A DNA stretch of 64,000 nucleotides from an uncultured Clostridia bacterium (GTDB lineage: Bacteria > Bacillota > Clostridia > Christensenellales > Borkfalkiaceae): assembly GCA_947570625.1 (NCBI GenBank), contig CANOUP010000003.1, positions 19,239 to 83,238 on the forward strand, in the 5' to 3' direction. The first letter of the stretch is position 1. Each line of letters starts with the position of its first letter. Under the pieces are notes generated by a model that saw only the letters and a list, made by a program, of their open reading frames with translations, made no database searches and had not been told where the DNA came from. The position numbers were made by a program, and so were the translations under genes. Shown piece by piece: positions 5,170 to 47,641 of this stretch.

Positions 5170-6606
5170 ATGATTGATAATAACGTTTACCAGAATCCTT
5201 TGATTACAAGGTATGCAAGTAAAGCAATGTCGGAAAACTTTTCCGATAACAAAAGGTTTGCGCTCTGGCGTAAACTTTGGATAGCTCTTTCGGAATCCGA
5301 AAAGGAACTCGGTCTGAATATATCCCAATCGCAGATTGACGAGATGAAGAAGTATGCCGAGGATATTAATTTCGAGCTTGCCGAACAGTATGAAAGAGAA
5401 GTGCGCCACGATGTAATGGCGCACGTGAAAGCTTTCGGTGCACAGGCAAAATCGGCTATGCCGATAATTCATCTCGGAGCTACCAGCTGTTATGTCGATT
5501 GTAATTCGGAATTGATTATAATTGCCGACGCGTTGGAGATAATCAAGCAGAAACTTGTCAACGTAATAGATAAACTTCGCGCGTTCGCTCTTAAATATAA
5601 GGATTTGCCTGCGCTCGGATTTACGCACCTTCAACCCGCACAGCTTACAACCGTGGGAAAGAGGGCAACGCTTTGGTTACAGGATTTGGTTATGGATTAC
5701 CATAATCTTATCAACCTTCAAAATTCGTTTAAGCTTCGCGGGGTAAAGGGAACCACCGGCACGCAAGCGAGTTTTATGGAGCTGTTCGAAGGCGACGAGA
5801 AGAAGGTTAAAGAGCTTGAACGGCGCGTTGCGGAAAAGCTCGGCTATAATAAATGTTACGGCGTGACGGGGCAGACGTATCCGAGAAAATTCGATTATAA
5901 CGTCTTGTGCGTGTTGTCGCAGATTGCCCAAAGCGCTTATAAGTTTTCAAACGATATACGTATTTTGCAGAATATGAAAGAGATAGAAGAACCTTTCGAG
6001 AAATCTCAAATTGGATCTTCTGCAATGGCGTATAAGCGCAATCCCATGCGCAGTGAAAGAATAGGCTCTCTCGCAAGATTCGTTATTTCGCTTCCCGTTA
6101 ACAGCGCGGTTACGGCGGGCACCCAGTGGTTCGAGAGGACTCTCGACGATTCCGCAAACAGAAGAATAGTAAATGCACAGGCTTTCCTTGCTCTGGACGG
6201 AATACTGAATATTTATATGAACGTATCAGAAAATCTTGTGGTATACGAAAAAGTAATAGCAAAGCACATCACGGCGGAATTGCCCTTTATGGCTACAGAA
6301 AATATAATGATGGAATGCGTAAAGGCGGGAGGAAACAGGCAGGAACTGCACGAGAAAATCAGGGTGCTTTCTATGGAAGCAGGCAGAAATGTAAAAGAGC
6401 TGGGCAAAGAAAACAATCTTATTGATTTGATAAAAGCCGATGAAACTTTTAATGCAGTCTGCGATAAACTTGACGATATACTCGACGCAAAGAAATTTAT
6501 AGGACGCGCGCCTTCACAGGTAAAGGAATTTATCGAAAACGAGGTTCAGCCCGTTCTCGACGAAAATAAATCCGTACTCGGTCAAAAGGGCGACGTAAAA
6601 ATATAA
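5170..6606 (+). CDS. purB: Adenylosuccinate lyase
   Basis: MIDNNVYQNPLITRYASKAMSENFS..., GSSAMAYKRNPMRSE signature. Start set at ATG 5170 behind ggagaaaaaa rather than the overlapping 5113 start in the ORF track. Confidence 0.93.
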   Translation: MIDNNVYQNPLITRYASKAMSENFSDNKRFALWRKLWIALSESEKELGLNISQSQIDEMKKYAEDINFELAEQYEREVRHDVMAHVKAFGAQAKSAMPIIHLGATSCYVDCNSELIIIADALEIIKQKLVNVIDKLRAFALKYKDLPALGFTHLQPAQLTTVGKRATLWLQDLVMDYHNLINLQNSFKLRGVKGTTGTQASFMELFEGDEKKVKELERRVAEKLGYNKCYGVTGQTYPRKFDYNVLCVLSQIAQSAYKFSNDIRILQNMKEIEEPFEKSQIGSSAMAYKRNPMRSERIGSLARFVISLPVNSAVTAGTQWFERTLDDSANRRIVNAQAFLALDGILNIYMNVSENLVVYEKVIAKHITAELPFMATENIMMECVKAGGNRQELHEKIRVLSMEAGRNVKELGKENNLIDLIKADETFNAVCDKLDDILDAKKFIGRAPSQVKEFIENEVQPVLDENKSVLGQKGDVKI

Positions 6607-6624
6607 ATTTAAGAAAACAAAAAA

Positions 6625-6652
6625 ACAGTTTCGGAAACACCGGAACTGTTTG
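6625..6652 (+). terminator. Hairpin after purB, possible terminator with only a short U-tract
   Basis: 9-bp stem 6625-6633/6641-6649 (acagtttcg / cggaactgt, one G.U pair) followed by only ttt. The island-side repeat begins at 6651. Confidence 0.45.
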
Positions 6653-6667
6653 GCAGGGGAGACACGA
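6651..6667. repeat. Distal att-type direct repeat (copy of the tRNA-Trp 3' end)
   Basis: Exact 17/17 identity to 47567-47583. The next 7 nt match 4/7 (gccgaat versus ttcgaac). Confidence 0.7.
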
Positions 6668-6790
6668 GCCGAATTTTTGGCTAAAATTATGTAAAAACGC
6701 TTAAATTACCTTAAAAAATGGGTAAAAATAGCCCAAAATTGAAAAATAAAGGCTTATAAAAATCAAAATTTAAAAATTTTTTATAAATTT

Positions 6791-6813
6791 TAGTGACACT
6801 CTTGTGTTCACTA
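6791..6813. repeat. Inverted pair of TAGTG(A)ACAC motifs related to the repeats at 47463-47496
   Basis: tagtgacac (6791-6799) and the reverse complement of gtgttcacta (6804-6813). Compare tagtggacac x3 near tRNA-Trp. Confidence 0.4.
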
Positions 6814-7010
6814 TTTTTTTATAAATATTCAATTTTATTATGCAACAATTTAACTGGTTCCCATTGCGGAAATTAAAAAATATTTTGGATTTGAAAATAT
6901 GATAATTCTTTGTGTAAAATTGATTGGTGTGTATTATAATATAAATTGAAAATTATAGAGTAAATTTTATGTCGCAATGTAATGTAAAAATATTTTATAA
7001 GGAATGAAAT

Positions 7011-8699
7011 ATGAATATATTGGAATACACAAAGCAGGATTTATATGCTTTAATGCTTAACGACACTTATAACGATTTTTTTGGGGCAATAAACTTAAAA
7101 GTCGAATTTGATAATGCAGAAAAATACTTAGAATATTATGCGTACAAAGCAAACAAAATTGAGTGTTTGGATGATTTTATTGATTATTTGTTTTTGTGGA
7201 AACAGAGTTTATACATCAATGCACTACCATACATTAAAGATGAAAGAAAGAAGGAGTTTGAACAAGTATATAGACATTTTGAAGAATTGTTTGCTAATTA
7301 TAAAGTAAAAGATGTAATATCATTTGTAAATAATCATTATTTCGAGATATGTGCCAATCAGGTTATTGCATTTGTTTCGTTTTCATTTATAAGCAATAAA
7401 CAAAAAGGCATTGATAAGAGTGTTTTTATTGAGTATGCTCAAAAGCAACCGTATATTTGGTATAGAAATCTAAAAAATCAAATTAAGTATTTATTACTAA
7501 ATAAAGATATAGTTGAAATATTATTTTCACAAGCAAATTTTGATAAGTATATGCTCGGTATGTATGATTTGATGTTTGAGTGCTTATCGATTTTGGCTAA
7601 GTATCCAATTTTCAATTCAATTGTAGAGCAAAATATGCAACGAATTATTGATTTTATGGATTCTATGGAAAAAGAAATTCAACAGGAAAATATTTTTCAG
7701 CACTATTTTGTTTATGAAGATTTTTGTGAGTTTTTACATAAATCAAAACATCCAAAAGCAAATGATAAGATTACTAACTTAAAACAATATGCAATGCTTT
7801 TAGAAAAGGAAATAGCAGACAATGGTCATCATTTTTCGTTTGAAATCAAAGGCAAAGATATTGAAGCGCATATCGGTAAAGTTGAGCCACAGTATGAAAT
7901 TTTACAATTAACGCATACATTTGACAAAGAACAGGATTGTATTATGTCAGTTTTTGAAAATGTAATGAAAAATCAAAATGAACAATCTTCATTAGTTGAT
8001 GTATTTAGGAACAACATACCGCATAACGATTATTTTACGACGTCAAAAATTGAGAAACTTCAACAAACGGTTTCTATTTATATAATAGTGCTTAATCACT
8101 ACATAAGTAAACCCGAAAGACAAAAATTTGTATTTACTTATATTAAATCTGTGATAGGTAGTGTATGTAATAAATTAGGTATTGATTATTTGGAAAATGG
8201 ATTACCTAATGATATTGAAATCATAGAAGCGGCGTTTTATAATTCATTTGAAATTGTAAGTAAAAATCAGTCTCAAGAAAAACAGATAATCCTACAATTG
8301 CTGTGTTATTCTTTAATTTCTTATATTTGTTCTTTTATAGAGAAATTATTAAGAGAAGTATTTATTAAAGAAAATCAAGAGCAAATGTTTATAGATGTGA
8401 ATAGTTTGACGCTCGGAGATTTGCTAAATATAAATAATAAAGTAATGGTAGAAATCTTAGGTTATGAGCAAGTTCGCTGTTTAAGATATTTTTTGCATAT
8501 GGATAATAATGAAGTAGGCGAAAATATAAGGAATAGATTTGCTCATTTTAATGGAGTAACGCCAAAGGATTTTCAGCCCAATACCGTTATTAAAGTTTTA
8601 TGGTTATTGCTTGGTATTGTAAATTCGCTAACATTGCACTATTTAATGACATCGGAAAACTCGGAAAACGAGGAGAATAATACAAACGCAAAGGGTTAA
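7011..8699 (+). CDS. Large alpha-helical protein with a C-terminal HEPN-type Rx4H motif (DUF4209-like)
   Basis: 562 aa. IRNRFAH lies at aa 506-512 (RNRFAH codons 8529-8546), preceded by LTLGDLL...LRYFLH and followed by a hydrophobic helix. This is the pattern I recall for DUF4209/HEPN. The gene is very AT-rich. Confidence 0.6.
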   Translation: MNILEYTKQDLYALMLNDTYNDFFGAINLKVEFDNAEKYLEYYAYKANKIECLDDFIDYLFLWKQSLYINALPYIKDERKKEFEQVYRHFEELFANYKVKDVISFVNNHYFEICANQVIAFVSFSFISNKQKGIDKSVFIEYAQKQPYIWYRNLKNQIKYLLLNKDIVEILFSQANFDKYMLGMYDLMFECLSILAKYPIFNSIVEQNMQRIIDFMDSMEKEIQQENIFQHYFVYEDFCEFLHKSKHPKANDKITNLKQYAMLLEKEIADNGHHFSFEIKGKDIEAHIGKVEPQYEILQLTHTFDKEQDCIMSVFENVMKNQNEQSSLVDVFRNNIPHNDYFTTSKIEKLQQTVSIYIIVLNHYISKPERQKFVFTYIKSVIGSVCNKLGIDYLENGLPNDIEIIEAAFYNSFEIVSKNQSQEKQIILQLLCYSLISYICSFIEKLLREVFIKENQEQMFIDVNSLTLGDLLNINNKVMVEILGYEQVRCLRYFLHMDNNEVGENIRNRFAHFNGVTPKDFQPNTVIKVLWLLLGIVNSLTLHYLMTSENSENEENNTNAKG

Positions 8700-8702
8700 A
8701 TT

Positions 8703-9326
8703 ATGGCTAAATTTGTTACAAGAAACGAAAGAAAAATAGCAATCGCGCGGGCGACGAAAATAGTTCGTGCTGTACAAGAGTATCTTGCGCCGAACTATAA
8801 AATGAATCCGCGATTAGTTGGATCGGCAAGATATAACGCGGTTATTTGTGATGATAGCGGTGTGTATGATATGGACTATCAACTTGTTTTGACTAATAAT
8901 TGCAAGTGTGAGAAGTTCGACGCGGATGTGATTCGTAAAGACTTTTTTACGGCATTTAATGCTGTAAAAAATAAAAATGAAAAAGTGGAGAACTCTACTT
9001 CCGTAATAACTGTCAGAGTTTCAAACAATAGCGGGAAGTTTGATAGCGATAAGGAAATTTTCAGTTTTGATTTTGCAATAGTGATTGAAAATAATCAAGG
9101 CTCATTTATAACGCGGCGAAATGATGATAATCATTGTGTGTGGAATAAATTGCCGAGCAAGAATAGTTACATATACGAAACATATTTTTCGTTAGATTAC
9201 TCTGACCAAAAAACGATTATTGATCGTGTAGTAAATCGTAAAATTAAAGAAAAAGCAAAACCAAAAGATAAGCGCATTGCTTCATCTGTTATATTTATGG
9301 AAGAAGTAAATAAGTTTGGAGATTGA
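8703..9326 (+). CDS. Minimal Pol-beta-superfamily nucleotidyltransferase
   Basis: 207 aa. G40-S41 (from 8820), D56-M-D58 (8868-8876) and a later FSFDFAIV strand give the GS / DxD / D catalytic pattern. The start lies 3 nt after the upstream stop. Confidence 0.6.
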   Translation: MAKFVTRNERKIAIARATKIVRAVQEYLAPNYKMNPRLVGSARYNAVICDDSGVYDMDYQLVLTNNCKCEKFDADVIRKDFFTAFNAVKNKNEKVENSTSVITVRVSNNSGKFDSDKEIFSFDFAIVIENNQGSFITRRNDDNHCVWNKLPSKNSYIYETYFSLDYSDQKTIIDRVVNRKIKEKAKPKDKRIASSVIFMEEVNKFGD

Positions 9327-9328
9327 CT

Positions 9329-9730
9329 ATGACGCCCAAAAAATTATTATATGAGATGACCTATGTAAATGAAAAACAAAGGGCAGAAGCGGAAAAGTAC
9401 ATTGCCTTAAAAGGAATTGTACAATATCGACGTGTCATAGAGTTTTGTCGTTCTCAGGGCGAAATACCTACATACACAAAAGTATCTTCAATGTATCGCT
9501 ATGATAAACGATTGCGGGATACTTTATATATTTATCTTGCGACTGCCGAAGAATTTATGCGTGCTTGCATAGGAAATCAATTTGAAGATAACGAAAGCGG
9601 GTTAATGAAAACTTCAAAATTCATTGCGAAACAAAGACAATATCAATCTGTATCACTAACATTGGAACAATTGACATTGGGTGCTTTAATTGATATGGTT
9701 TTGAGCAAAGGCTTAGACAACAGTTATTAA
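9329..9730 (+). CDS. Abi_2 (AbiD/AbiF) N-terminal-like protein lacking the HEPN half, possibly a truncated gene
   Basis: YRRVIEF... and SSMYRYDKRLRDTLYIYLATAEEFMRACIG resemble the Abi_2 lY.fD.kLR..l...iE block. No RNxxAH motif follows. ATG 9329 is preferred to TTG 9323 (ggag at 9317-9320). Confidence 0.5.
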   Translation: MTPKKLLYEMTYVNEKQRAEAEKYIALKGIVQYRRVIEFCRSQGEIPTYTKVSSMYRYDKRLRDTLYIYLATAEEFMRACIGNQFEDNESGLMKTSKFIAKQRQYQSVSLTLEQLTLGALIDMVLSKGLDNSY

Positions 9731-9918
9731 AAGAGCCAATTTCAATAGGAAGAATGTCAGATATATCTCAAAAATTTGATAAGTATTGTTATGACGGTGT
9801 GAAAATTAAATTAAAGGCAGATATAGAAACGTATGAGTAGTCTTAAATCTATGCTATTCGTTCTAATTCTATCGTAGTGGCACAGCATGGCACATTTTTT
9901 GTGCGGTGGCACACGAAA

Positions 9919-9971
9919 TCCAACTGCTGAGCGGACTTGAACCGCCGACCTCATCCTTACCAAGGACGAAC
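9919..9971 (-). other. tRNA-like 3' fragment (variable-arm hairpin plus T-arm), probable relic att site
   Basis: The minus strand reads gttcgTCCTTggtAAGGAtgaggtcGGCGGTTCAAGTCCGCTcagcagt. It has a class-II-like variable arm and a GGTTCAAGTCC T-loop, but no 5' half or anticodon arm. Confidence 0.45.
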
Positions 9972-10202
9972 CCTAATTTTTGAAAAGGAGTAACCCTAAT
10001 TTAAAAATATGCTAAAACACACAATATATTGTGGTTTTAAGCGGATTTTCTTGTTCTTGATACAATTTCAAAATATTTGCAGATATTTTTTAATTCAAAT
10101 TGTCTGCAAATGTCTGCAATTTTAGAGAATTAGAACGATTTAGAGCGTTTTAGAAAGGTTTAATCATTGTTATTTTTATATTGAATCGTAAATAATAAAC
10201 TT

Positions 10203-10463
10203 ATGATAAATTATGAAAAGGTTTACGTTTCAGTATATCTTAAAATCAATTTAAACGGAATAATGAAACCCGTCGCTGTAGAATGGACGGATGGAAAACG
10301 GTTTGAAATAGAAAAAGTTATAGACGAGCGCAACGCACCGCCCGAACATACCGGAGGCGTGCTTACGAGAAAGTATAAAGTAATTATAAATGGTAAAGAG
10401 AAAATAATTTATTTGGATAAGCAGACAAACAGGTGGTTTGTGGAAAAGCCGTTGTACGATTAA
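10203..10463 (+). CDS. Small hypothetical protein upstream of dinB
   Basis: 86-aa ORF ending 28 nt before the dinB start. No family recognised. Confidence 0.5.
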   Translation: MINYEKVYVSVYLKINLNGIMKPVAVEWTDGKRFEIEKVIDERNAPPEHTGGVLTRKYKVIINGKEKIIYLDKQTNRWFVEKPLYD

Positions 10464-10491
10464 GTACGGCGGCTTTGCTCATACTTTGAAT

Positions 10492-11742
10492 ATGCGAACC
10501 ATTCTGCACAGCGATTTAAATAACTTTTACGCATCCGTTGAGTGCTTGCGTAATCCTGAAATAAGAAACTTCCCCGTTGTAGTTGTTGGAAGCAAAGAGG
10601 ACAGGCACGGAATAGTTCTTGCTAAAAATATGATAGCCAAAGGCTTCGGTGTTAAGACGGGCGACGTATATTGGGAAGCAAAGCAAAAGTGCGGCGGAAC
10701 GCTCGTTGAAGTGCAAGCGGACTTTTCAACTTATATAAATGTTTCAAGAGAAGTTCGTAAAATTTATGAGGACTATGCGGACAGAATAGAAGCCTACGGC
10801 ATAGACGAGTGCTGGCTTGACGTCAGTTCGGGTTTAAAGCTGTTTGGAAGCGGCAGAGAGATAGCCGAAACTATAAGAGAGCGGATAAAGAAAGAAATAG
10901 GGCTTACTGTAAGTATTGGAGTTAGTTGGAATAAGATATTTGCAAAGCTCGGCTCTGATATGAAAAAGCCGGACGCAGTGACAGAAATTACAGCCGAAAA
11001 CTATAAACTAAAAGTATGGACTTTACCCGTGGAAGATTTGCTTTACGTTGGTAAGGCAACGCAGCAAAAACTTAACCGCATGGGCATTAAGACGATAGGC
11101 GACCTTGCCCAAGCCGACGAGCAGACTCTTGTAAATTTACTCGGCAAGTGGGGATATTATCTTCATACTTTTGCTAATGGTAAAGACGAATCACCTGTAA
11201 CTAAAATAGGTGAAGAAGAAGCAATTAAATCCATAGGCAACAGTCTTACAGTTTATAGAGATTTGGTAGACGAAAACGACGTAGAGCCGGTAATTTATCT
11301 GCTTGCGGACAGCGTAAGCGCAAGAATGAGAGAGGCAGGACTGAACAAAGCCCGCACCGTTCACGTCTATGCGAGGGCAAATAATTTGGTGGGGTATCAG
11401 AAACAAGGGAAACTCCCCCGACCTTCCGGCACTATGCAGGCCGTAGCAAAAACGGCATTAAAACTGTTTAAGGAAGTCTATCCGTGGGAGAAGCCCGTGC
11501 GCAGTCTTGGAATATCCGTTTCAGACTTTTTATTCGGAAACGAACAGCTCGATTTATTCGGAGATTTGGAAAAGGACGAAAAGCAGAAGCGGTTGGATAA
11601 TGCAATAGACAAACTGCGGGAGAAGTACGGCAACAACGTGATTCAGGCGGCTATCGTTTATAAAGACCCGAAACTTAAAGATTTGGATATAAAGGGGGAA
11701 CATACAATTCACCCGTATAGCTTTTTCAAAAACAATAAATAA
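10492..11742 (+). CDS. dinB: DNA polymerase IV (Y-family translesion polymerase)
   Basis: MRTILHSDLNNFYASVE..., GIDECWLDV, SIGVSWNKIFAKLGSDMKKPD. Start set at ATG 10492. Confidence 0.92.
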   Translation: MRTILHSDLNNFYASVECLRNPEIRNFPVVVVGSKEDRHGIVLAKNMIAKGFGVKTGDVYWEAKQKCGGTLVEVQADFSTYINVSREVRKIYEDYADRIEAYGIDECWLDVSSGLKLFGSGREIAETIRERIKKEIGLTVSIGVSWNKIFAKLGSDMKKPDAVTEITAENYKLKVWTLPVEDLLYVGKATQQKLNRMGIKTIGDLAQADEQTLVNLLGKWGYYLHTFANGKDESPVTKIGEEEAIKSIGNSLTVYRDLVDENDVEPVIYLLADSVSARMREAGLNKARTVHVYARANNLVGYQKQGKLPRPSGTMQAVAKTALKLFKEVYPWEKPVRSLGISVSDFLFGNEQLDLFGDLEKDEKQKRLDNAIDKLREKYGNNVIQAAIVYKDPKLKDLDIKGEHTIHPYSFFKNNK

Positions 11743-11765
11743 AGCGCACGTTACAAGTGCGCTTT
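11741..11765. terminator. Bidirectional hairpin shared by the convergent dinB and SRAP genes
   Basis: aaagcgcac-gttacaa-gtgcgcttt, overlapping the SRAP stop codon. Confidence 0.6.
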
Positions 11766-12305
11766 TAGTTTTATTTGATTGTCCGTTAAAATGAACCGGC
11801 GGGCAAAGTCCTTATCGTTCAGATAGTAGTCTTTTATATCCTCGCCCACAATGACGGGTATGCGGTTGTGATATTTTTCTACGGGCGGAGTGGACTGTTT
11901 AGTAAGAATAATAAACTTGTTTTCCCCGTCCTCGTTGCGATAAAATCCGCCGAGATATAAAACCTTTCCGTCCAAACGCTCAAAGTAGTACTTATTCTTG
12001 TAAGTATCCCACTCATAAAAACCGCTTGCAGGAATAAGGCATCTTCGCTCTAAAAAGCTCTTGCGGAAGGTCTGTTTATCCGTAACTGTTTCAGCGCGGG
12101 CGTTAATAAGCACGCCTTTACCGTCGAACTTACCGAAGCCCCATTTGGAAAGTATCGGGTGTTTATCTTTTGTAAGAACGGGCATATAGTAAGTAGGGTA
12201 AATATCGCCGAATTTAATCTGAACGTTTCTCTCGCTTTCAGGTAGTTCGCTTAAAATCCGCTCTATATCCTTGTCGTTGCTGTTAAAATGAAATCTTCCG
12301 CACAT
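11751..12305 (-). CDS. SOS-response-associated peptidase (SRAP / YedK family, abasic-site processing)
   Basis: Starts MCGRF (catalytic Cys2). 184 aa with ...INARAET... and ...PASGFYEW.... Confidence 0.85.
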   Translation of the reverse strand: MCGRFHFNSNDKDIERILSELPESERNVQIKFGDIYPTYYMPVLTKDKHPILSKWGFGKFDGKGVLINARAETVTDKQTFRKSFLERRCLIPASGFYEWDTYKNKYYFERLDGKVLYLGGFYRNEDGENKFIILTKQSTPPVEKYHNRIPVIVGEDIKDYYLNDKDFARRFILTDNQIKLKAHL

Positions 12306-12380
12306 ACATTAAGTTTGTTCAGTTTGCAAATATTTATAAAATTACTGAATATTGGCTAAAATTTAATGTGTATAAAAGCC

Positions 12381-12409
12381 TTGACAAATACATATAATAT
12401 AATTATAAT
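12381..12409 (+). promoter_or_regulatory. Consensus sigma-A-type promoter for brnT-brnA
   Basis: TTGACA (12381-12386), 17-nt spacer, TATAAT (12404-12409). The brnT ATG is at 12416. Confidence 0.55.
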
Positions 12410-12415
12410 ATAATT

Positions 12416-12709
12416 ATGGAAGAAATAAGTTTTGAATGGGACGATAATAAAAATACTATAAACAAGAATAAGCATAAAATATCGTTTGAAGAAGCAAAGA
12501 CTGTATTTTATGACGAACAGGCTTTGGTAATAGATGACCCGGAACATTCAGCGGAAGAAGAACGTTTTATTATTCTCGGTTTCAGTACGCAAGCCAATTT
12601 GCTTGTGGTTTGCCATTGTTATCGTTCTGCTGATATGGTAATAAGAATTATATCGGCAAGAAAAGCCACTAAAAACGAAGCAAAATATTACGAAAAGAGA
12701 GGTGACTAA
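12416..12709 (+). CDS. brnT: BrnT-family (DUF497) ribonuclease toxin
   Basis: FEWDDNKNTINKNKHKISFEEA... and RIISARKATKNE are typical of BrnT. 97 aa, overlapping brnA by 8 nt. Confidence 0.8.
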   Translation: MEEISFEWDDNKNTINKNKHKISFEEAKTVFYDEQALVIDDPEHSAEEERFIILGFSTQANLLVVCHCYRSADMVIRIISARKATKNEAKYYEKRGD

Positions 12710-12920
12710 AATGAAGAATGAATATGATTTTTCAAATGCAAGACAAAACCCTTACGTTAAGAAGTTGAAAAAGCAAATTACTATCAACCTTGATAATGAA
12801 ACAATTGATTATTTTAAGAGCCTTGCGCAAAATACGGGTATACCTTATCAAACGCTTATAAATTTGTTCCTTGCAGACTGTGCAAAGAATAAAAAGCAGC
12901 CTACGGTTGCGTGGAACTAA
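12702..12920 (+). CDS. brnA: BrnA-family antitoxin
   Basis: 72 aa, with ...ITINLDNETIDYFKSLAQNTGIPYQTLINLFL.... The toxin-then-antitoxin order matches BrnTA. Confidence 0.75.
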   Translation: MTKMKNEYDFSNARQNPYVKKLKKQITINLDNETIDYFKSLAQNTGIPYQTLINLFLADCAKNKKQPTVAWN

Positions 12921-12940
12921 ATATAAACTAAATTTAAATA

Positions 12941-12972
12941 TAACGGCAGTTTATACTGCCGTTATTTTTTTA
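12941..12972 (+). terminator. Intrinsic terminator after brnA
   Basis: taacggcagt-ttat-actgccgtta followed by a T-run. Confidence 0.8.
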
Positions 12973-12993
12973 TTCTCTGCGCATACTGTCATT

Positions 12994-13809
12994 ATGGCAT
13001 ACAGTTATAAAGGCAGTATAAGTTTCGGGTTTGTGTACATTCCCGTAACCCTGCATAAGATCATAAAAAGCAACGATATCGGTTTTAATATGATAGACAA
13101 AAAGACCAACTGCCGAGTGCAGTATAAAAAAACCTGCGCAGATTGCGGCGGTAGGGAAGTCAAACAGGAAGATATAGTAAAGGGCTTCGAGTACGAGGAC
13201 GGAAAGTACGTTATCTTTGAAGATAAGGACTTTGAAAAGCTGAAATCCAAGAAAGACAAAAATATAACCATTGAAAAGTTTGTTGAACTTGCCGAGGTTG
13301 ACCCTCTGTATTTTGAAACGCCTTACTATGTTGTTCCCACGGGTGCTGAAAAGGCGTTTGTTGTGCTTTTAAAAGCTATGGAGGAAGAGGGTAAAGCAGC
13401 GGTTGCAAAAACAGTATTAGGCAATAAAGAAACGCTTATTTTAATAAGGGCGAAAGACGGGCAGATGCTTTTGAACACGCTATTCTTTGAAGAGGAAGTA
13501 ACCAAAAATCCTGCAAAGGAAATAACCGAAAAGCCGAGCGCCACCGAACTTAAAATGGCAAAGGCAATTATAGAGGGAATGAGTGGAAAATTCGTTCCGT
13601 CCGAATATAAGGACGAATACCGCCAAAAGGTGCAGGAAGCGATAGAGAGAAAGATTGCCGGCAAGCAAATTGTAGCACCCAAAGAGAACGGAACGGCAAG
13701 CGTTTCGAACCTTATGGAAGCGCTTACAAAATCGCTTGAGCTTGCGCAGAAGCCCAAAGCTAAAAAGGCTACACCGAAGAAAACGACGACGAGGAAGAAA
13801 GAGGCGTGA
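12994..13809 (+). CDS. ku: Ku protein (non-homologous end joining)
   Basis: MAYSYKGSISFGFVYIPVTLHK... with a lysine-rich C-terminal tail. Start placed at ATG 12994, downstream of the brnA terminator. Confidence 0.9.
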   Translation: MAYSYKGSISFGFVYIPVTLHKIIKSNDIGFNMIDKKTNCRVQYKKTCADCGGREVKQEDIVKGFEYEDGKYVIFEDKDFEKLKSKKDKNITIEKFVELAEVDPLYFETPYYVVPTGAEKAFVVLLKAMEEEGKAAVAKTVLGNKETLILIRAKDGQMLLNTLFFEEEVTKNPAKEITEKPSATELKMAKAIIEGMSGKFVPSEYKDEYRQKVQEAIERKIAGKQIVAPKENGTASVSNLMEALTKSLELAQKPKAKKATPKKTTTRKKEA

Positions 13810-14723
13810 GCGATTTATTTGAAGAAAAAAATATCTCGCCTATGCTATTGCACGAGGTCAAAAAGCCATTTGATGACGAGGACTATATATACGAATTGAA
13901 GTTGGACGGAATACGTTGCGTGGCTTATATAGAGCCTAAATCGGTATCTCTGCAAAATAAGCGGTTTAAGGAATTGACCCCCATATATCCAGAACTTTCG
14001 GATATTTGCAAGTGCGTTAAAAAGCGTGTAATACTTGACGGAGAGCTTGTCTTTCTGACAGACGGCAAGCCAAATTTTTATGCTCTGCAACGGCGCAGTC
14101 TTATGACGGACAGTTTCAGAATATCGCTTGCGGCAAAGAAAAATCCCGTGCAGTTCGCAGCTTACGATATTATTTATTTTGACGGAAAAGATCTTACGGA
14201 TAAACCGCTTTTGGAGCGTAAAGAAATTCTTTCCGAAAATGTAAGAGAAGGCTTTAATTTAAGCATATCCCGTTGGATAGAAAAGAGCGGCGTTGCCTTT
14301 TTCGAGCTTGCGAAGAAAGAGAACTTGGAGGGCATCGTCGCCAAGAAAAAGGACGGCCTGTATCACATAGGCAAGCGCACGTTGGAATGGATAAAGATTA
14401 AAGTAATGCAGGATGAGGACTTACTTATTTTGGGTTATCAGCCAGACGAAGACGGGAAAGTTAAAGATTTAATTTTAGGTTTCTATGACGATAAAGGCGA
14501 ACTTAAATGCAGGGGGAAAGTTTACCTCGGTGTATCCAAAGCAGAGCAGAAAATCATAGCCGAATTTGCAAAAAAGAACACGGTCAAAATACCGTGGTTC
14601 GATAAATATAAAAACGTAGTGTGGTTAAAACCGCAGCTTGTCGGTACGGCTCATTTTATGCATGAAACTGAAAACGGCGGTATGCGTCAGCCCGTGTGGA
14701 AGGGGTTGAGGGAAGATAAGTAA
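13806..14723 (+). CDS. ligD: ATP-dependent DNA ligase (LigD ligase domain only)
   Basis: ELKLDGIRCVAY (KxDG adenylation motif), 305 aa. The GTG start overlaps the ku stop (GTGA). Confidence 0.88.
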   Translation: MSDLFEEKNISPMLLHEVKKPFDDEDYIYELKLDGIRCVAYIEPKSVSLQNKRFKELTPIYPELSDICKCVKKRVILDGELVFLTDGKPNFYALQRRSLMTDSFRISLAAKKNPVQFAAYDIIYFDGKDLTDKPLLERKEILSENVREGFNLSISRWIEKSGVAFFELAKKENLEGIVAKKKDGLYHIGKRTLEWIKIKVMQDEDLLILGYQPDEDGKVKDLILGFYDDKGELKCRGKVYLGVSKAEQKIIAEFAKKNTVKIPWFDKYKNVVWLKPQLVGTAHFMHETENGGMRQPVWKGLREDK

Positions 14724-47566: not shown

Positions 47567-47641
47567 TGGCAGGGGAGACACGATTCGAACATGCAACCGA
47601 CGGTTTTGGAGACCGCGACTCTACCGTTGAGCTACTCCCCT
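47567..47641 (-). tRNA. trnW: tRNA-Trp (anticodon CCA), CCA end encoded
   Basis: The minus strand folds by hand as AGGGGAG-TA-GCTC-AACGGTA-GAGT-C-GCGGT-CTCCAAA-ACCGT-CGGTT-GCATG-TTCGAAT-CGTGT-CTCCCCT-G-CCA (75 nt). Confidence 0.9.

What the first reader, a model, noticed from the sequence alone, without database searches (positions are those of the whole stretch)
7011..9730. AT-rich three-gene cassette (HEPN protein, nucleotidyltransferase, Abi_2-like ORF): candidate uncharacterised defence or abortive-infection module
Three co-directional ORFs are packed with 3-nt and 2-nt gaps, which suggests one operon. They sit at the distal end of a tRNA-linked island. On lines I counted by hand the DNA is roughly 20-30% G+C, against about 40-57% in flanking genes. 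The domain combination is a large helical protein ending in a HEPN-type RNRFAH motif, a minimal Pol-beta nucleotidyltransferase with a complete GS/DxD/D pattern, and an Abi_2 N-terminal-like ORF. HEPN RNases paired with minimal NTases are the logic of type VII HEPN/MNT toxin-antitoxin systems, and Abi_2 is a known abortive-infection family. Here, however, the HEPN partner is about four times larger than a HepT toxin, the gene order is reversed, and the NTase has an extra C-terminal region. I cannot match this to any named defence system from memory.
Basis: partly seen in the sequence, partly recalled or inferred. Interest (0 to 1): 0.85.

Follow-up and report, generated by a model that had tools for sequence, protein, structure and literature searches.

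The report
Decayed HEPN and nucleotidyltransferase defence cassette
This AT-rich cassette joins a large predicted RNase gene to the deletion-damaged remains of an apparently undescribed two-gene pair, a small cGAS-like nucleotidyltransferase that always sits next to an AbiF-type RNase; the pair looks like a new phage-defence or toxin-antitoxin module, but it is broken in this genome.

Summary
The three ORFs, their 3-nt and 2-nt gaps, the low G+C and the quoted motifs are all real. The cassette is not a three-gene unit, though.

- **Deletion.** Sister strains (99.98% identical) carry four genes, A-B-C-D. This window has a clean 994-bp deletion that removes the HEPN half of gene C and most of gene D.
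- **Conserved pair.** The conserved functional pair is B plus C, not A plus B. B is a 207-aa nucleotidyltransferase whose closest relatives by fold and profile are CD-NTase/CBASS cyclases. It lies next to a ~216-aa Abi_2 (AbiD/F-type) HEPN protein in 55 of 55 evaluable loci, in either gene order. These loci sit in defence islands, and one is in a gut phage. All catalytic residues are conserved.
- **Gene A.** A (562 aa) is a divergent DUF4209-class HEPN protein. It occurs alone, upstream of B-C, or downstream of B-C.
- **Databases.** Pfam, NCBIfam and PADLOC do not recognise B or the B-C pairing.
- **Most likely mechanism (inferred).** C is an AbiF-like RNase toxin held in check by B. A is an independent sensor-plus-HEPN effector.

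In this window only A and an orphan B remain intact. I rate it a new variant of a known kind, of moderate to high interest.

The parts
6607..7010 (+). AT-rich (24% G+C) spacer between the purB stop and gene A. It holds a promoter-like site (6891-6920) and an AAGGA ribosome-binding site before the ATG.
   Evidence: The spacer is identical in the sister strains but is not conserved upstream of A genes in other contexts. There is therefore no sign of a conserved upstream ncRNA.
7011..8699 (+). Gene A: a 562-aa all-helical protein. It has a variable N-terminal ~440 aa and a C-terminal DUF4209-class HEPN domain. It is intact here.
   Evidence: ORF; 18 relatives; invariant R507, N508, H512; 9/11 members hit DUF4209, best E 3.3e-5; the window protein scores 17.3 bits against a cut-off of 22.3. 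AF2 pLDDT 79, all alpha; local Foldseek matches to HepT HEPN toxins, prob 0.92, TMt 0.6, E>1; the C-terminus is more conserved than the N-terminus.
8337..8648 (+). HEPN (DUF4209-like) domain of A, residues 443-546. The R507-N-R-F-A-H512 motif lies at 8529-8546.
8703..9326 (+). Gene B: a 207-aa minimal CD-NTase-like nucleotidyltransferase. G40-S41 is at 8820-8825, D56-x-D58 at 8868-8876 and D123 at 9069-9071. It is intact here, but its partner is broken.
   Evidence: invariant residues. AF2 pLDDT 83. Foldseek top hits are CdnB, CdnE, DncV and CdnD, E 1e-7 to 1e-5, TMq 0.5-0.57; a SMODS hit at 1e-3 in one member. PADLOC CBASS 'Cyclase' hits at 8.5e-8 and 7e-6 in distant members; 437 clusters, nearly all 200-230 aa; 67/67 keep G, S, D, D, D.
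9329..9730 (+). Gene C remnant: the first ~127 codons of an Abi_2 (AbiD/F-type) HEPN gene, followed by 7 out-of-frame codons and a stop. The HEPN motif R151-N-x3-H156-H157 is missing.
   Evidence: alignment with the 216-aa homologues. (deletion); 22.5 bits, below the 25.6 cut-off; the full-length allele scores 30.6 bits, above the cut-off. R-N-x3-H is kept in 79/79 full-length C proteins.
9707..9708 (.). Junction of a 994-bp deletion relative to the sister strains (L028 12699-13692), with 2 bp of microhomology (AA).
   Evidence: The truncated protein is on record from 4 contigs.
9709..9840 (+). Remnant of gene D: the last 43 codons and the stop of a 280-aa gene with no family match.
   Evidence: the translation RLRQQLLKEPISIG...ETYE* equals the C-terminus of D in L028. 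D has no match in Pfam, PADLOC, NCBIfam or PDB sequences.
9921..9969 (-). The 3' half (anticodon stem to acceptor end) of a tRNA-Thr(GGU), present as a remnant.
   Evidence: The intact gene sits at the equivalent place in L025 (9557-9632, minus strand). Neither ARAGORN nor Rfam calls a tRNA here.
9970..10154 (.). Conserved non-coding 'arm' with the palindrome CACAATATATTGTG (10020-10033) and TGCAA repeats. It is most likely the end (att junction) of an integrative element.
   Evidence: It is ~70% identical, in inverted orientation, to the DNA directly after A in L001-L004 and directly after C in L006.

Best explanation
The locus is a horizontally acquired, partly decayed defence cassette built from two separable modules.

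**Module 1: gene A.** It is a single-protein effector with a variable ~440-aa helical N-terminal region and a conserved DUF4209-class HEPN RNase domain. By inference it is auto-inhibited until the N-terminal part senses a phage cue. It then cleaves RNA and aborts infection.

**Module 2: the B-C pair, with D in this clade.** C is a trimmed AbiF-type (Abi_2) HEPN RNase. B is a minimal CD-NTase-like nucleotidyltransferase encoded next to it. By inference, B keeps the intrinsically toxic C inactive through its nucleotidyl-transfer activity. It would do so either by modifying C or by making a nucleotide product that occupies C. B thus takes the place of the ncRNA antitoxin of classical AbiF systems and plays the role MntA plays for HepT. 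Infection would relieve this control.

**State in this window.** A 994-bp deletion has removed the catalytic half of C and nearly all of D. Module 2 is therefore dead and B is an orphan. A is intact.

**What is shown and what is inferred.** Shown: the gene anatomy, the deletion, the family and fold assignments, the strict B-C adjacency, the conservation of catalytic residues, and the defence-island context. Inferred: RNase activity, the direction of regulation (B restrains C), the trigger, and the independence of A.
For: **Deletion and decay**
- The window differs from sister strains (99.98% identity) by one 994-bp deletion.
- There is a second, independent deletion in L052.
- A B-C deletion fusion, P0087, is on record from 20 contigs.

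**B-C as the unit**
- All 10 loci from the species-representative genomes and every metagenome locus with enough flank have the two genes adjacent (55/55 evaluable).
- The order is B then C in the near clade and C then B in the distant clade. Gaps are a few nt, or the genes overlap.
- C falls into 45 clusters at 90% identity and 19 at 60%.
- One pair lies in a complete gut phage genome.
- 67/67 B proteins keep G40, S41, D56, D58 and D123. 79/79 C proteins keep R-N-x3-H.

**B is CD-NTase-like:**

**C is Abi_2**
- The full-length allele passes the Pfam cut-off.
- The nearest solved sequence is 8vz6 'Abi family protein'.
- C is one HEPN domain with no extra sensor domain.
- AbiF/AbiD-type toxins are toxic on their own and are neutralised by a cis-encoded ncRNA (PMC13064643, PMC12373285). 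Here only 2 nt separate B from C, so there is no room for such an RNA between them.
- HepT/MntA gives the precedent of an NTase that neutralises a HEPN toxin (PDB 7ae9 and 7ae6, titles). Hailong gives the precedent of an NTase acting as a negative regulator through an oligonucleotide product (PMC13434031).

**A is separable**
- A occurs alone next to Pycsar and SLFN_AlbA_2 genes and alone in L005.
- A lies upstream of B-C in five lineages.
- A full-length homologue (hhalign prob 99%, E 6e-18) lies downstream of B-C in Paracholeplasma vituli.
- L016 and L012 share ~98-100% identical B, C and D, but their A proteins are only 61% identical. This indicates that the A gene has been exchanged.
- The N-terminus is more variable than the HEPN domain.
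- Sensor-plus-HEPN single proteins such as HepS and RAZR are established defences (PMC13434031).

**Defence context of neighbours:**
Against: - No biochemical or phenotypic data exist for any member.
- B's nearest relatives are signal-making CD-NTases, not MNT antitoxins. That fits a signalling model at least as well.
- C lacks the Tyr of the HepT Rx4HxY motif that MntA modifies.
- Three loci (L075, L077, L090) show B split by a frameshift while C is intact. Two of the three shifts lie in a T-run or an (AT)n repeat, so they may be assembly errors. If they are real, B is not an essential antitoxin.
- A's DUF4209 hit is below Pfam's cut-off for the window protein, and the fold evidence for its HEPN domain is only local.
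- A sits 3 nt from B and is linked to B-C in two gene orders, so it may not be fully independent.
Confidence: 0.5

Rival explanations
1. A minimal CBASS-like or OAS/RNase L-like signalling pair. B is activated by infection and makes a nucleotide second messenger. The messenger switches on the HEPN RNase C, and possibly A where it is present.
For: - B's best structural matches are all CD-NTases: CdnB, CdnE, DncV and CdnD, at E 1e-7 to 1e-5.
- Distant family members hit PADLOC CBASS 'Cyclase' models at 8.5e-8 and 7e-6. One member hits Pfam SMODS at 1e-3.
- The catalytic triad is invariant.
- A gene order that can flip, and a defence-island setting, are both usual for CBASS.
- An NTase plus a HEPN RNase is the logic of OAS and RNase L (PMC13434031).
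Against: - B is about 100 aa shorter than any CD-NTase matched (207 aa against 271-389 aa). It keeps only three C-terminal helices.
- C is a single 216-aa Abi_2 HEPN domain with no SAVED, CARF, STING or other sensor domain.
- The window's own B hits no cyclase or SMODS model.
- The AbiF-type toxins that have been characterised are constitutively toxic and need an inhibitor, not an activator (PMC13064643).
Confidence: 0.25
2. The 562-aa HEPN protein A is the toxin or effector and B is its MNT-type antitoxin, a reversed and enlarged type VII HEPN/MNT system. The Abi_2 ORF is an accessory.
For: - A and B are 3 nt apart and co-directional.
- A-B-C is conserved in five lineages.
- An A homologue also accompanies B-C in Paracholeplasma.
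Against: - A stands alone in L001-L004 and L005.
- B occurs without A in L019-L027 and L034-L043. None of the 78 metagenome loci fetched with C holds an A relative.
- B is always next to C.
- B is not MNT-like.
- L016 and L012 carry nearly identical B-C-D blocks beside A proteins only 61% identical, so the A gene has been exchanged next to a conserved block.
Confidence: 0.08
3. One obligate multi-gene system. A, B, C and D work only together, for example with A as sensor, B as transducer, and C and D as effectors. Loci with fewer genes would be other variants.
For: - The gaps are tight (3, 2 and 14 nt) and all genes share one direction.
- The B-C-D block is conserved at 86% identity or more in four contexts.
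- A is linked to B-C in two gene orders.
Against: - D is confined to one close clade.
- Many B-C pairs have no co-directional neighbour within 200 nt on either side.
- Third genes next to B-C are highly varied: an SF1 helicase, HamA, R-M subunits, Metallophos and a 220-aa RNxxxH protein.
- A occurs alone.
Confidence: 0.07
4. A selfish addiction module or plain genomic debris. The genes stabilise the mobile element that carried them, or do nothing, and give the host no phage protection.
For: - The cassette sits beside an att-like tRNA-Thr remnant.
- Homologues lie beside integrases and recombinases.
- Decay is repeated: two deletions in this species, the P0087 fusion and the frameshifts.
Against: - Catalytic residues are conserved throughout.
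- The pair persists across 19 clusters of C at 60% identity and in both gene orders.
- Neighbours are mostly defence genes rather than only mobility genes.
- Addiction and defence are not mutually exclusive for TA-like modules.
Confidence: 0.1

Closest known systems
AbiF/AbiD (Abi_2, PF07751) type III toxin-antitoxin / abortive-infection systems
   Same: Gene C belongs to the same HEPN family. The full-length allele passes the Pfam cut-off. It shares the RYDKRLR...Y.YL..EE and RNxxxHH motifs. The nearest solved sequence is 8vz6 'Abi family protein'. It is a small toxin-like RNase on mobile elements and in a phage.
   Different: C is about 216 aa, against 300-340 aa for AbiF. There is no space for the upstream ncRNA antitoxin. 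A nucleotidyltransferase gene is always adjacent instead. In this window the catalytic half of C is deleted.
Type VII HEPN/MNT toxin-antitoxin (HepT/MntA)
   Same: A small HEPN RNase is encoded next to a Pol-beta-superfamily NTase. In the near clade the NTase comes first. Enzymatic neutralisation of the toxin is the most economical model.
   Different: The HEPN protein is Abi_2, not HepT/DUF86. It has no Tyr after the Rx4H motif. The NTase is CD-NTase-like, not MNT. The gene order is reversed in the distant clade.
Type I CBASS (CD-NTase plus effector) and the eukaryotic OAS-RNase L pathway
   Same: B has a CD-NTase-like fold and weak cyclase/SMODS profile matches. The layout is two genes in defence islands. 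An NTase plus a HEPN RNase mirrors OAS and RNase L.
   Different: B is about 100 aa shorter than known CD-NTases. C has no recognisable nucleotide-sensing domain. PADLOC does not detect the window's B.
DUF4209 / C6orf70-type HEPN proteins, and single-protein HEPN defences (ApeA, HepS, RAZR)
   Same: A has a C-terminal HEPN domain with an invariant R-N-x3-H motif that matches DUF4209. It has a large, variable N-terminal region and occurs alone in defence islands.
   Different: A falls below Pfam's cut-off (17.3 bits against 22.3). Its N-terminal region has no match in the PDB or BFVD. The family is tiny (18 proteins). No member has been tested.
Hailong (HalA/HalB)
   Same: It is a two-gene system in which an NTase acts as a negative regulator of a toxic effector through a nucleotide product (PMC13434031). 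This is a precedent for B restraining C.
   Different: The Hailong effector is a membrane channel, not a HEPN RNase. No homology between B and HalB was tested or seen.

Membership tests
Type VII HEPN/MNT TA (HepT/MntA) | Toxin of the HepT/DUF86 HEPN family with an Rx4HxY motif | tested here: not met
   A hits only DUF4209 and C hits only Abi_2. Neither has a HepT-like hit. The motifs are RNRFAHFN in A and RNKVGHHNF in C, with no Tyr at +2.
Type VII HEPN/MNT TA (HepT/MntA) | Antitoxin is a minimal nucleotidyltransferase (MNT/NTP_transf_2, about 100-140 aa) | tested here: not met
   B has no Pfam NTase hit. It is 207 aa. The Foldseek top 23 hits are all CD-NTases, and no MNT appears in the top 50.
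Type VII HEPN/MNT TA (HepT/MntA) | The antitoxin nucleotidylylates the toxin | not testable with these tools
   This needs mass spectrometry of C co-expressed with B.
CBASS | A CD-NTase (SMODS / PADLOC Cyclase) enzyme | tested here: inconclusive
   Fold match to CdnB, CdnE and DncV at E 1e-7 to 1e-5, TMq 0.5-0.57. PADLOC Cyclase hits occur for distant members only (8.5e-8 and 7e-6). SMODS hits one member at 1e-3. The window's B hits none. Its length is 207 aa, against 271 aa or more.
CBASS | Effector with a nucleotide-sensing domain (SAVED, STING, CARF and the like) or a known CBASS effector type | tested here: not met
   C carries only an Abi_2 HEPN domain.
CBASS | Synthesis of a cyclic oligonucleotide signal | not testable with these tools
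   This needs biochemistry.
Abi_2 (AbiD/AbiF) type III TA | Abi_2 domain at or above the Pfam cut-off, with the HEPN R-N-x3-H motif | tested here: not met
   The window's C scores 22.5 bits against 25.6 and lacks the motif because of the deletion. The intact allele in sister strains meets both criteria (30.6 bits; R151, N152, H156).
Abi_2 (AbiD/AbiF) type III TA | A cis-encoded ncRNA antitoxin directly upstream of the toxin gene | tested here: not met
   Only 2 nt separate B and C. Gaps are a few nt, or the genes overlap, in the other loci. There is no Rfam match in 6500-10300. An RNA elsewhere in the locus was not excluded.
DUF4209 (C6orf70-type) HEPN family | Match to PF13910 at or above the cut-off | tested here: inconclusive
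   The window's A scores 17.3 bits against 22.3 (E 5e-3) over the full model, 1-88/89. 9 of 11 family members hit, best E 3.3e-5. The Paracholeplasma homologue hits at E 0.01.
DUF4209 (C6orf70-type) HEPN family | Conserved Rx4-6H catalytic motif in a four-helix HEPN fold | tested here: met
   R507, N508 and H512 are invariant down to 21% identity. The segment is helical in the AF2 model. There are local Foldseek matches to HepT toxins, prob 0.92 and TMt about 0.6, although E>1.
Defence island / mobile-element cargo | Homologues recurrently flanked by known defence or mobility genes in unrelated genomes | tested here: met
   Neighbours include Pycsar, SLFN_AlbA_2, AIPR, AbiH, HamA, HsdR/HsdM, DUF4365, HipA, PIN/Phd, integrases and recombinases. 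The window itself has a tRNA-Thr remnant and an att-like arm.

The most novel reading that the evidence does not exclude
B is an enzyme that manufactures the antitoxin. It would synthesise, without a template, a short oligonucleotide that is either free or primed on protein. That oligonucleotide would occupy the RNA-binding groove of the AbiF-like HEPN protein C, in the place where classical AbiF systems hold their genome-encoded ncRNA. Phage nucleases, nucleotide depletion or shut-off of B would remove the plug and release the RNase. This would be a hybrid of Hailong logic and type III TA logic, arising in the protein family ancestral to Cas13.
Probability: 0.12. Interest if true: 0.85.

Novelty: new variant of a known kind. 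Interest (0 to 1): 0.6.

Why it matters
AbiF-type HEPN proteins are reported to share a common ancestor with the RNA-guided nuclease Cas13. So far they are known to be controlled by a small RNA encoded upstream.

A whole clade of these proteins turns out to be strictly coupled to a cGAS-like nucleotidyltransferase instead. The coupling holds in 55 of 55 evaluable loci, in either gene order, with every catalytic residue kept. It is seen in Bacillota, in Acholeplasma relatives and in a gut phage. This would be a new way of controlling a HEPN toxin.

It would also give a compact two-gene system in which to ask a directly testable question. Does a minimal CD-NTase-like enzyme act as a signal maker, as in CBASS and OAS/RNase L, or as an inhibitor, as in MntA and Hailong?

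The partner NTase is invisible to Pfam, NCBIfam and PADLOC. Such loci are therefore probably annotated at best as single-gene 'Abi2' hits.

The 562-aa protein adds an untested bacterial representative of the DUF4209 HEPN class.

For this particular genome the practical message is more modest. The pair is already broken by a deletion.

Tried and rejected
- **PADLOC 'Csm3' hit for A** (E 8e-5). Rejected as compositional: the AF2 model of A is all alpha, whereas, from general knowledge, Csm3 is a RAMP-fold protein rich in beta strands.
- **Weak Pfam hits for B and C** (DUF3823, Raf1_N, MACPF and others). All are below the cut-offs and inconsistent across members.
- **Conserved ncRNA upstream of A**, as in AbiF or AbiV. 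Upstream regions from eight contexts share no similarity, and there is no Rfam match.
- **att direct repeats around the cassette.** None were found.
- **The 521+207+174+217-aa gene run upstream in L007.** It looked like a paralogous cassette but shows no BLAST similarity.
- **The 499-aa gene after B-C in L043.** It is a Metallophos protein, not an A relative. The 220-aa gene after B-C in L040 has an RNxxxH motif but no significant relation to A.
- **Long proteins containing a B domain** (P0265, P0312). They are B-B tandems, not C-B fusions.
- **Searches that returned nothing.**
  - PDB sequence searches with the A, B and D profiles.
  - Scans of the viral contig collection for A and B.
  - A plasmid search for B.
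  - Global fold searches for A against the PDB and BFVD, which found no significant whole-protein match.
- **Organism name.** It could not be obtained: the exact-match clusters carry no names.

Full report
**1. The observation**

Three co-directional ORFs lie at 7011-8699 (A, 562 aa), 8703-9326 (B, 207 aa) and 9329-9730 (C', 133 aa from the ATG). The gaps between them are 3 nt and 2 nt.

G+C is 27.5% for A, 34.5% for B and 34.6% for C'. It is 43.5% for the flanking purB and dinB genes and 41.8% for the whole window.

They are R507-N-R-F-A-H512 in A, and G40-S41, D56-x-D58 and D123 in B.

All three ORFs have homologues elsewhere. They are genes, not chance ORFs in AT-rich DNA.

Two parts of the description do not hold as written.
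- The only tRNA that ARAGORN finds is tRNA-Trp at 47567-47641.
- The third ORF is not a naturally short gene.

**2. The cassette is decayed**

The exact A protein is encoded on other contigs of the same species, at the same site between purB and dinB. Those contigs carry four genes: A (562 aa), B (207 aa), C (216 aa) and D (280 aa).

The window is 99.98% identical to them, apart from one clean 994-bp deletion. It corresponds to L028 12699-13692, and the window junction is at 9707/9708 with 2 bp of microhomology.

The deletion removes C residues from about 128 to 216. That stretch includes the HEPN motif R151-N152-x3-H156-H157. It also removes all but the last 43 codons of D, which are still readable at 9709-9840.

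The truncated protein is on record from four contigs. Other lesions occur in the same family:
- a second deletion, running from the middle of A into D, in L052;
- a B-C deletion fusion, P0087, on 20 contigs.

**3. Gene A**

The family is small: 18 proteins in a 5.8-billion-protein search.

R507, N508 and H512 are invariant down to 21% identity. Nine of eleven members hit Pfam DUF4209 over the whole 89-position model, with a best E of 3.3e-5. The window protein itself scores below the cut-off, at 17.3 bits against 22.3. DUF4209 was classified as a HEPN family (the C6orf70 type) by Anantharaman et al. 2013 (PMC3710099).

The AF2 model is all alpha (pLDDT 79). It has no significant global match in the PDB or BFVD. 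Its C-terminal part matches HepT HEPN toxins locally, with prob 0.92 and TMt about 0.6 but E>1.

The HEPN part is more conserved than the first 440 residues.

**4. Gene B**

Pfam and NCBIfam give nothing for the window protein. The evidence for its fold comes from elsewhere.
- The AF2 model (pLDDT 83) matches bacterial CD-NTases (CdnB, CdnE, DncV, CdnD, CdnC) at E 1e-7 to 1e-5 and TMq 0.5-0.57. Cid1 and MiD51 come lower, and no MNT antitoxin appears in the top 50.
- Distant family members hit PADLOC's CBASS 'Cyclase' models at 8.5e-8 and 7e-6.
- One member hits SMODS at 1e-3.

A profile search of 1.84 billion cluster representatives finds 437 clusters at E<=1e-3. Nearly all are 200-230 aa, and a few are B-B tandem fusions.

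B is therefore a distinct, trimmed, CD-NTase-like nucleotidyltransferase family, not an MNT.

**5. Gene C**

The full-length allele passes the Pfam Abi_2 cut-off (30.6 bits against 25.6). It gives a weak PADLOC AbiD hit. Its nearest solved sequence is 8vz6 'Abi family protein'.

C is a single HEPN domain of about 216 aa, shorter than AbiF.

**6. Which genes belong together**

B was used to fetch loci from the species-representative genomes: 10 loci from Christensenella, Clostridia, Bacilli, Acholeplasma and Paracholeplasma. C was used to fetch 78 metagenome loci. HMMs of A, B and C were then run over all ORFs.

- In 55 of 55 loci with at least 650 nt on both sides, B and C are adjacent.
- In 22 of the 33 shorter loci the partner is still visible.
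- The order is B then C in the near clade. It is C then B where C is 32% identical or less.
- C falls into 45 clusters at 90% identity and 19 at 60%.
- 67/67 B proteins keep G, S, D, D, D, and 79/79 C proteins keep R-N-x3-H.
- A complete gut phage genome (PV036423.1) carries a C-B pair.

A behaves differently. It is absent from all 78 metagenome loci.
- It occurs alone next to Pycsar and SLFN_AlbA_2 genes, and alone in L005.
- It lies upstream of B-C in five lineages.
- A full-length homologue (hhalign prob 99%, E 6e-18) lies 17 nt downstream of B-C in Paracholeplasma vituli.
- L016 and L012 share about 98-100% identical B, C and D, but their A proteins are only 61% identical. This indicates that the A gene has been exchanged beside a conserved block.

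D is confined to one close clade. Many B-C pairs have no co-directional neighbour at all.

The unit is therefore B-C. A is a separable module that sometimes travels with it.

**7. Context**

Neighbours of the homologous loci include:
- Pycsar, SLFN_AlbA_2, AIPR and AbiH;
- Hachiman HamA;
- type I R-M subunits HsdR and HsdM;
- DUF4365 (twice) and Metallophos (twice);
- a recurrent SF1 helicase of about 911 aa;
- HipA and PIN/Phd toxin-antitoxin genes;
- integrases and serine recombinases.

In the window, the cassette is followed by the 3' half of a tRNA-Thr(GGU) at about 9921-9969 on the minus strand. The intact gene sits at the equivalent place in L025.

After that comes a conserved arm of about 190 nt, with a palindrome and TGCAA repeats. 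The arm recurs at about 70% identity, inverted, directly after A in L001-L004 and directly after C in L006.

This looks like the junction of an integrative element. I did not resolve which side of the junction is the element.

**8. Mechanism**

Published work gives the background.
- AbiF/AbiD-type HEPN proteins are toxic and are neutralised by an ncRNA encoded directly upstream (PMC13064643, PMC12373285).
- HepT toxins are neutralised by the NTase MntA (PDB 7ae9 and 7ae6, titles).
- Hailong uses an NTase as a negative regulator through an oligonucleotide product (PMC13434031).
- Sensor-plus-HEPN single proteins such as HepS and RAZR are established defences (PMC13434031).

The C subfamily has no room for an upstream RNA and no sensor domain. 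It always has an active-looking NTase beside it. My best reading, which is inferred, is that B restrains C enzymatically and that infection lifts the restraint.

The main rival is a CBASS-like or OAS/RNase L-like signalling pair. B's kinship with CD-NTases favours that model. C's lack of a ligand-sensing domain counts against it.

One caveat bears on the restraint model. Three loci show a frameshifted B next to an intact C. Two of the three shifts lie in a T-run or an (AT)n repeat and may be assembly errors.

A is most simply an independent, auto-inhibited HEPN effector.

In this window only A and an orphan B are intact.

**9. Novelty and score**

The superfamilies are known: Abi_2 HEPN, DUF4209 HEPN and Pol-beta/CD-NTase-like NTases. 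So is the general logic of an NTase paired with a HEPN protein.

The new element is the strict coupling of a minimal CD-NTase-like enzyme to an AbiF-type HEPN protein. I found no description of this pairing in the paper searches. PADLOC, Pfam and NCBIfam do not recognise B. DefenseFinder could not be run.

I rate it a new variant of a known kind, with interest 0.6.

Noticed in passing
window 9921-10154: A remnant of the 3' half of tRNA-Thr(GGU) lies on the minus strand. It is followed by a conserved non-coding arm of about 190 nt, with the palindrome CACAATATATTGTG at 10020-10033 and TGCAA repeats. The same arm (~70% identity, inverted) follows A in L001-L004 and follows C in L006. It is probably an att junction of a family of integrative elements that target tRNA-Thr.
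   Followed up: partly
window 10203-14723: To the right of the arm lies a block of genes: an 86-aa ORF overlapping the start of a Y-family polymerase (IMS/DinB), an SRAP gene on the opposite strand, a BrnT/BrnA toxin-antitoxin pair, then Ku and an ATP-dependent DNA ligase. The block may itself be mobile-element cargo. The annotation is taken from the identical sister contig.
   Followed up: no
L132 3235-4504 (phage NatCom_17901, PV036423.1): A complete 57-kb human-gut phage genome carries a C-then-B pair. The Abi_2-like protein hits at E 4e-44 and the NTase at E 3e-23 against the family HMMs. Both genes are annotated there as hypothetical proteins.
   Followed up: partly
P0265, P0312: These proteins consist of two B-type NTase domains in tandem. 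The first copy in P0265 has lost the third catalytic Asp, which suggests that B works as a dimer that may be asymmetric.
   Followed up: no
L073, L075-L078, L091, L099 (downstream of B-C): A recurrent SF1 helicase of about 911 aa (AAA_30, UvrD_C_2) follows the B-C pair in seven loci, down to 27% identity. It could be a third component in that clade.
   Followed up: partly
L040, L061-L063, L065, L066: A conserved ~220-aa protein with an NLRNKMVH (RNxxxH) motif follows B-C in this Acholeplasma-like clade. This would make a second HEPN-like gene next to the pair, as A is in the window. Its Pfam hits (HEPN_LA2681, HepT-like) are only weak.
   Followed up: partly
L075, L077, L090: B is split by a frameshift while C is intact. 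In L090 the shift is a 2-bp loss in an (AT)n run, and in L077 it is a T7/T8 run. These may be assembly errors or real slippage. The distinction bears on whether B is an essential antitoxin.
   Followed up: partly
L052 (same species as the window): A second, independent deletion of about 2.7 kb runs from the middle of A into D (L028 10497 to 13175). The cassette is therefore being lost repeatedly in this population.
   Followed up: partly
L007 2809-6436: A run of 521-, 207-, 174- and 217-aa genes lies just upstream of the A-B-C cassette, and another 521-aa gene lies downstream. It mimics the cassette's size pattern but has no BLAST similarity to it and no Pfam hits.
   Followed up: partly
window 47567-47641: This is the only intact tRNA in the 64-kb window (tRNA-Trp, minus strand). 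It is unrelated to the cassette.
   Followed up: no
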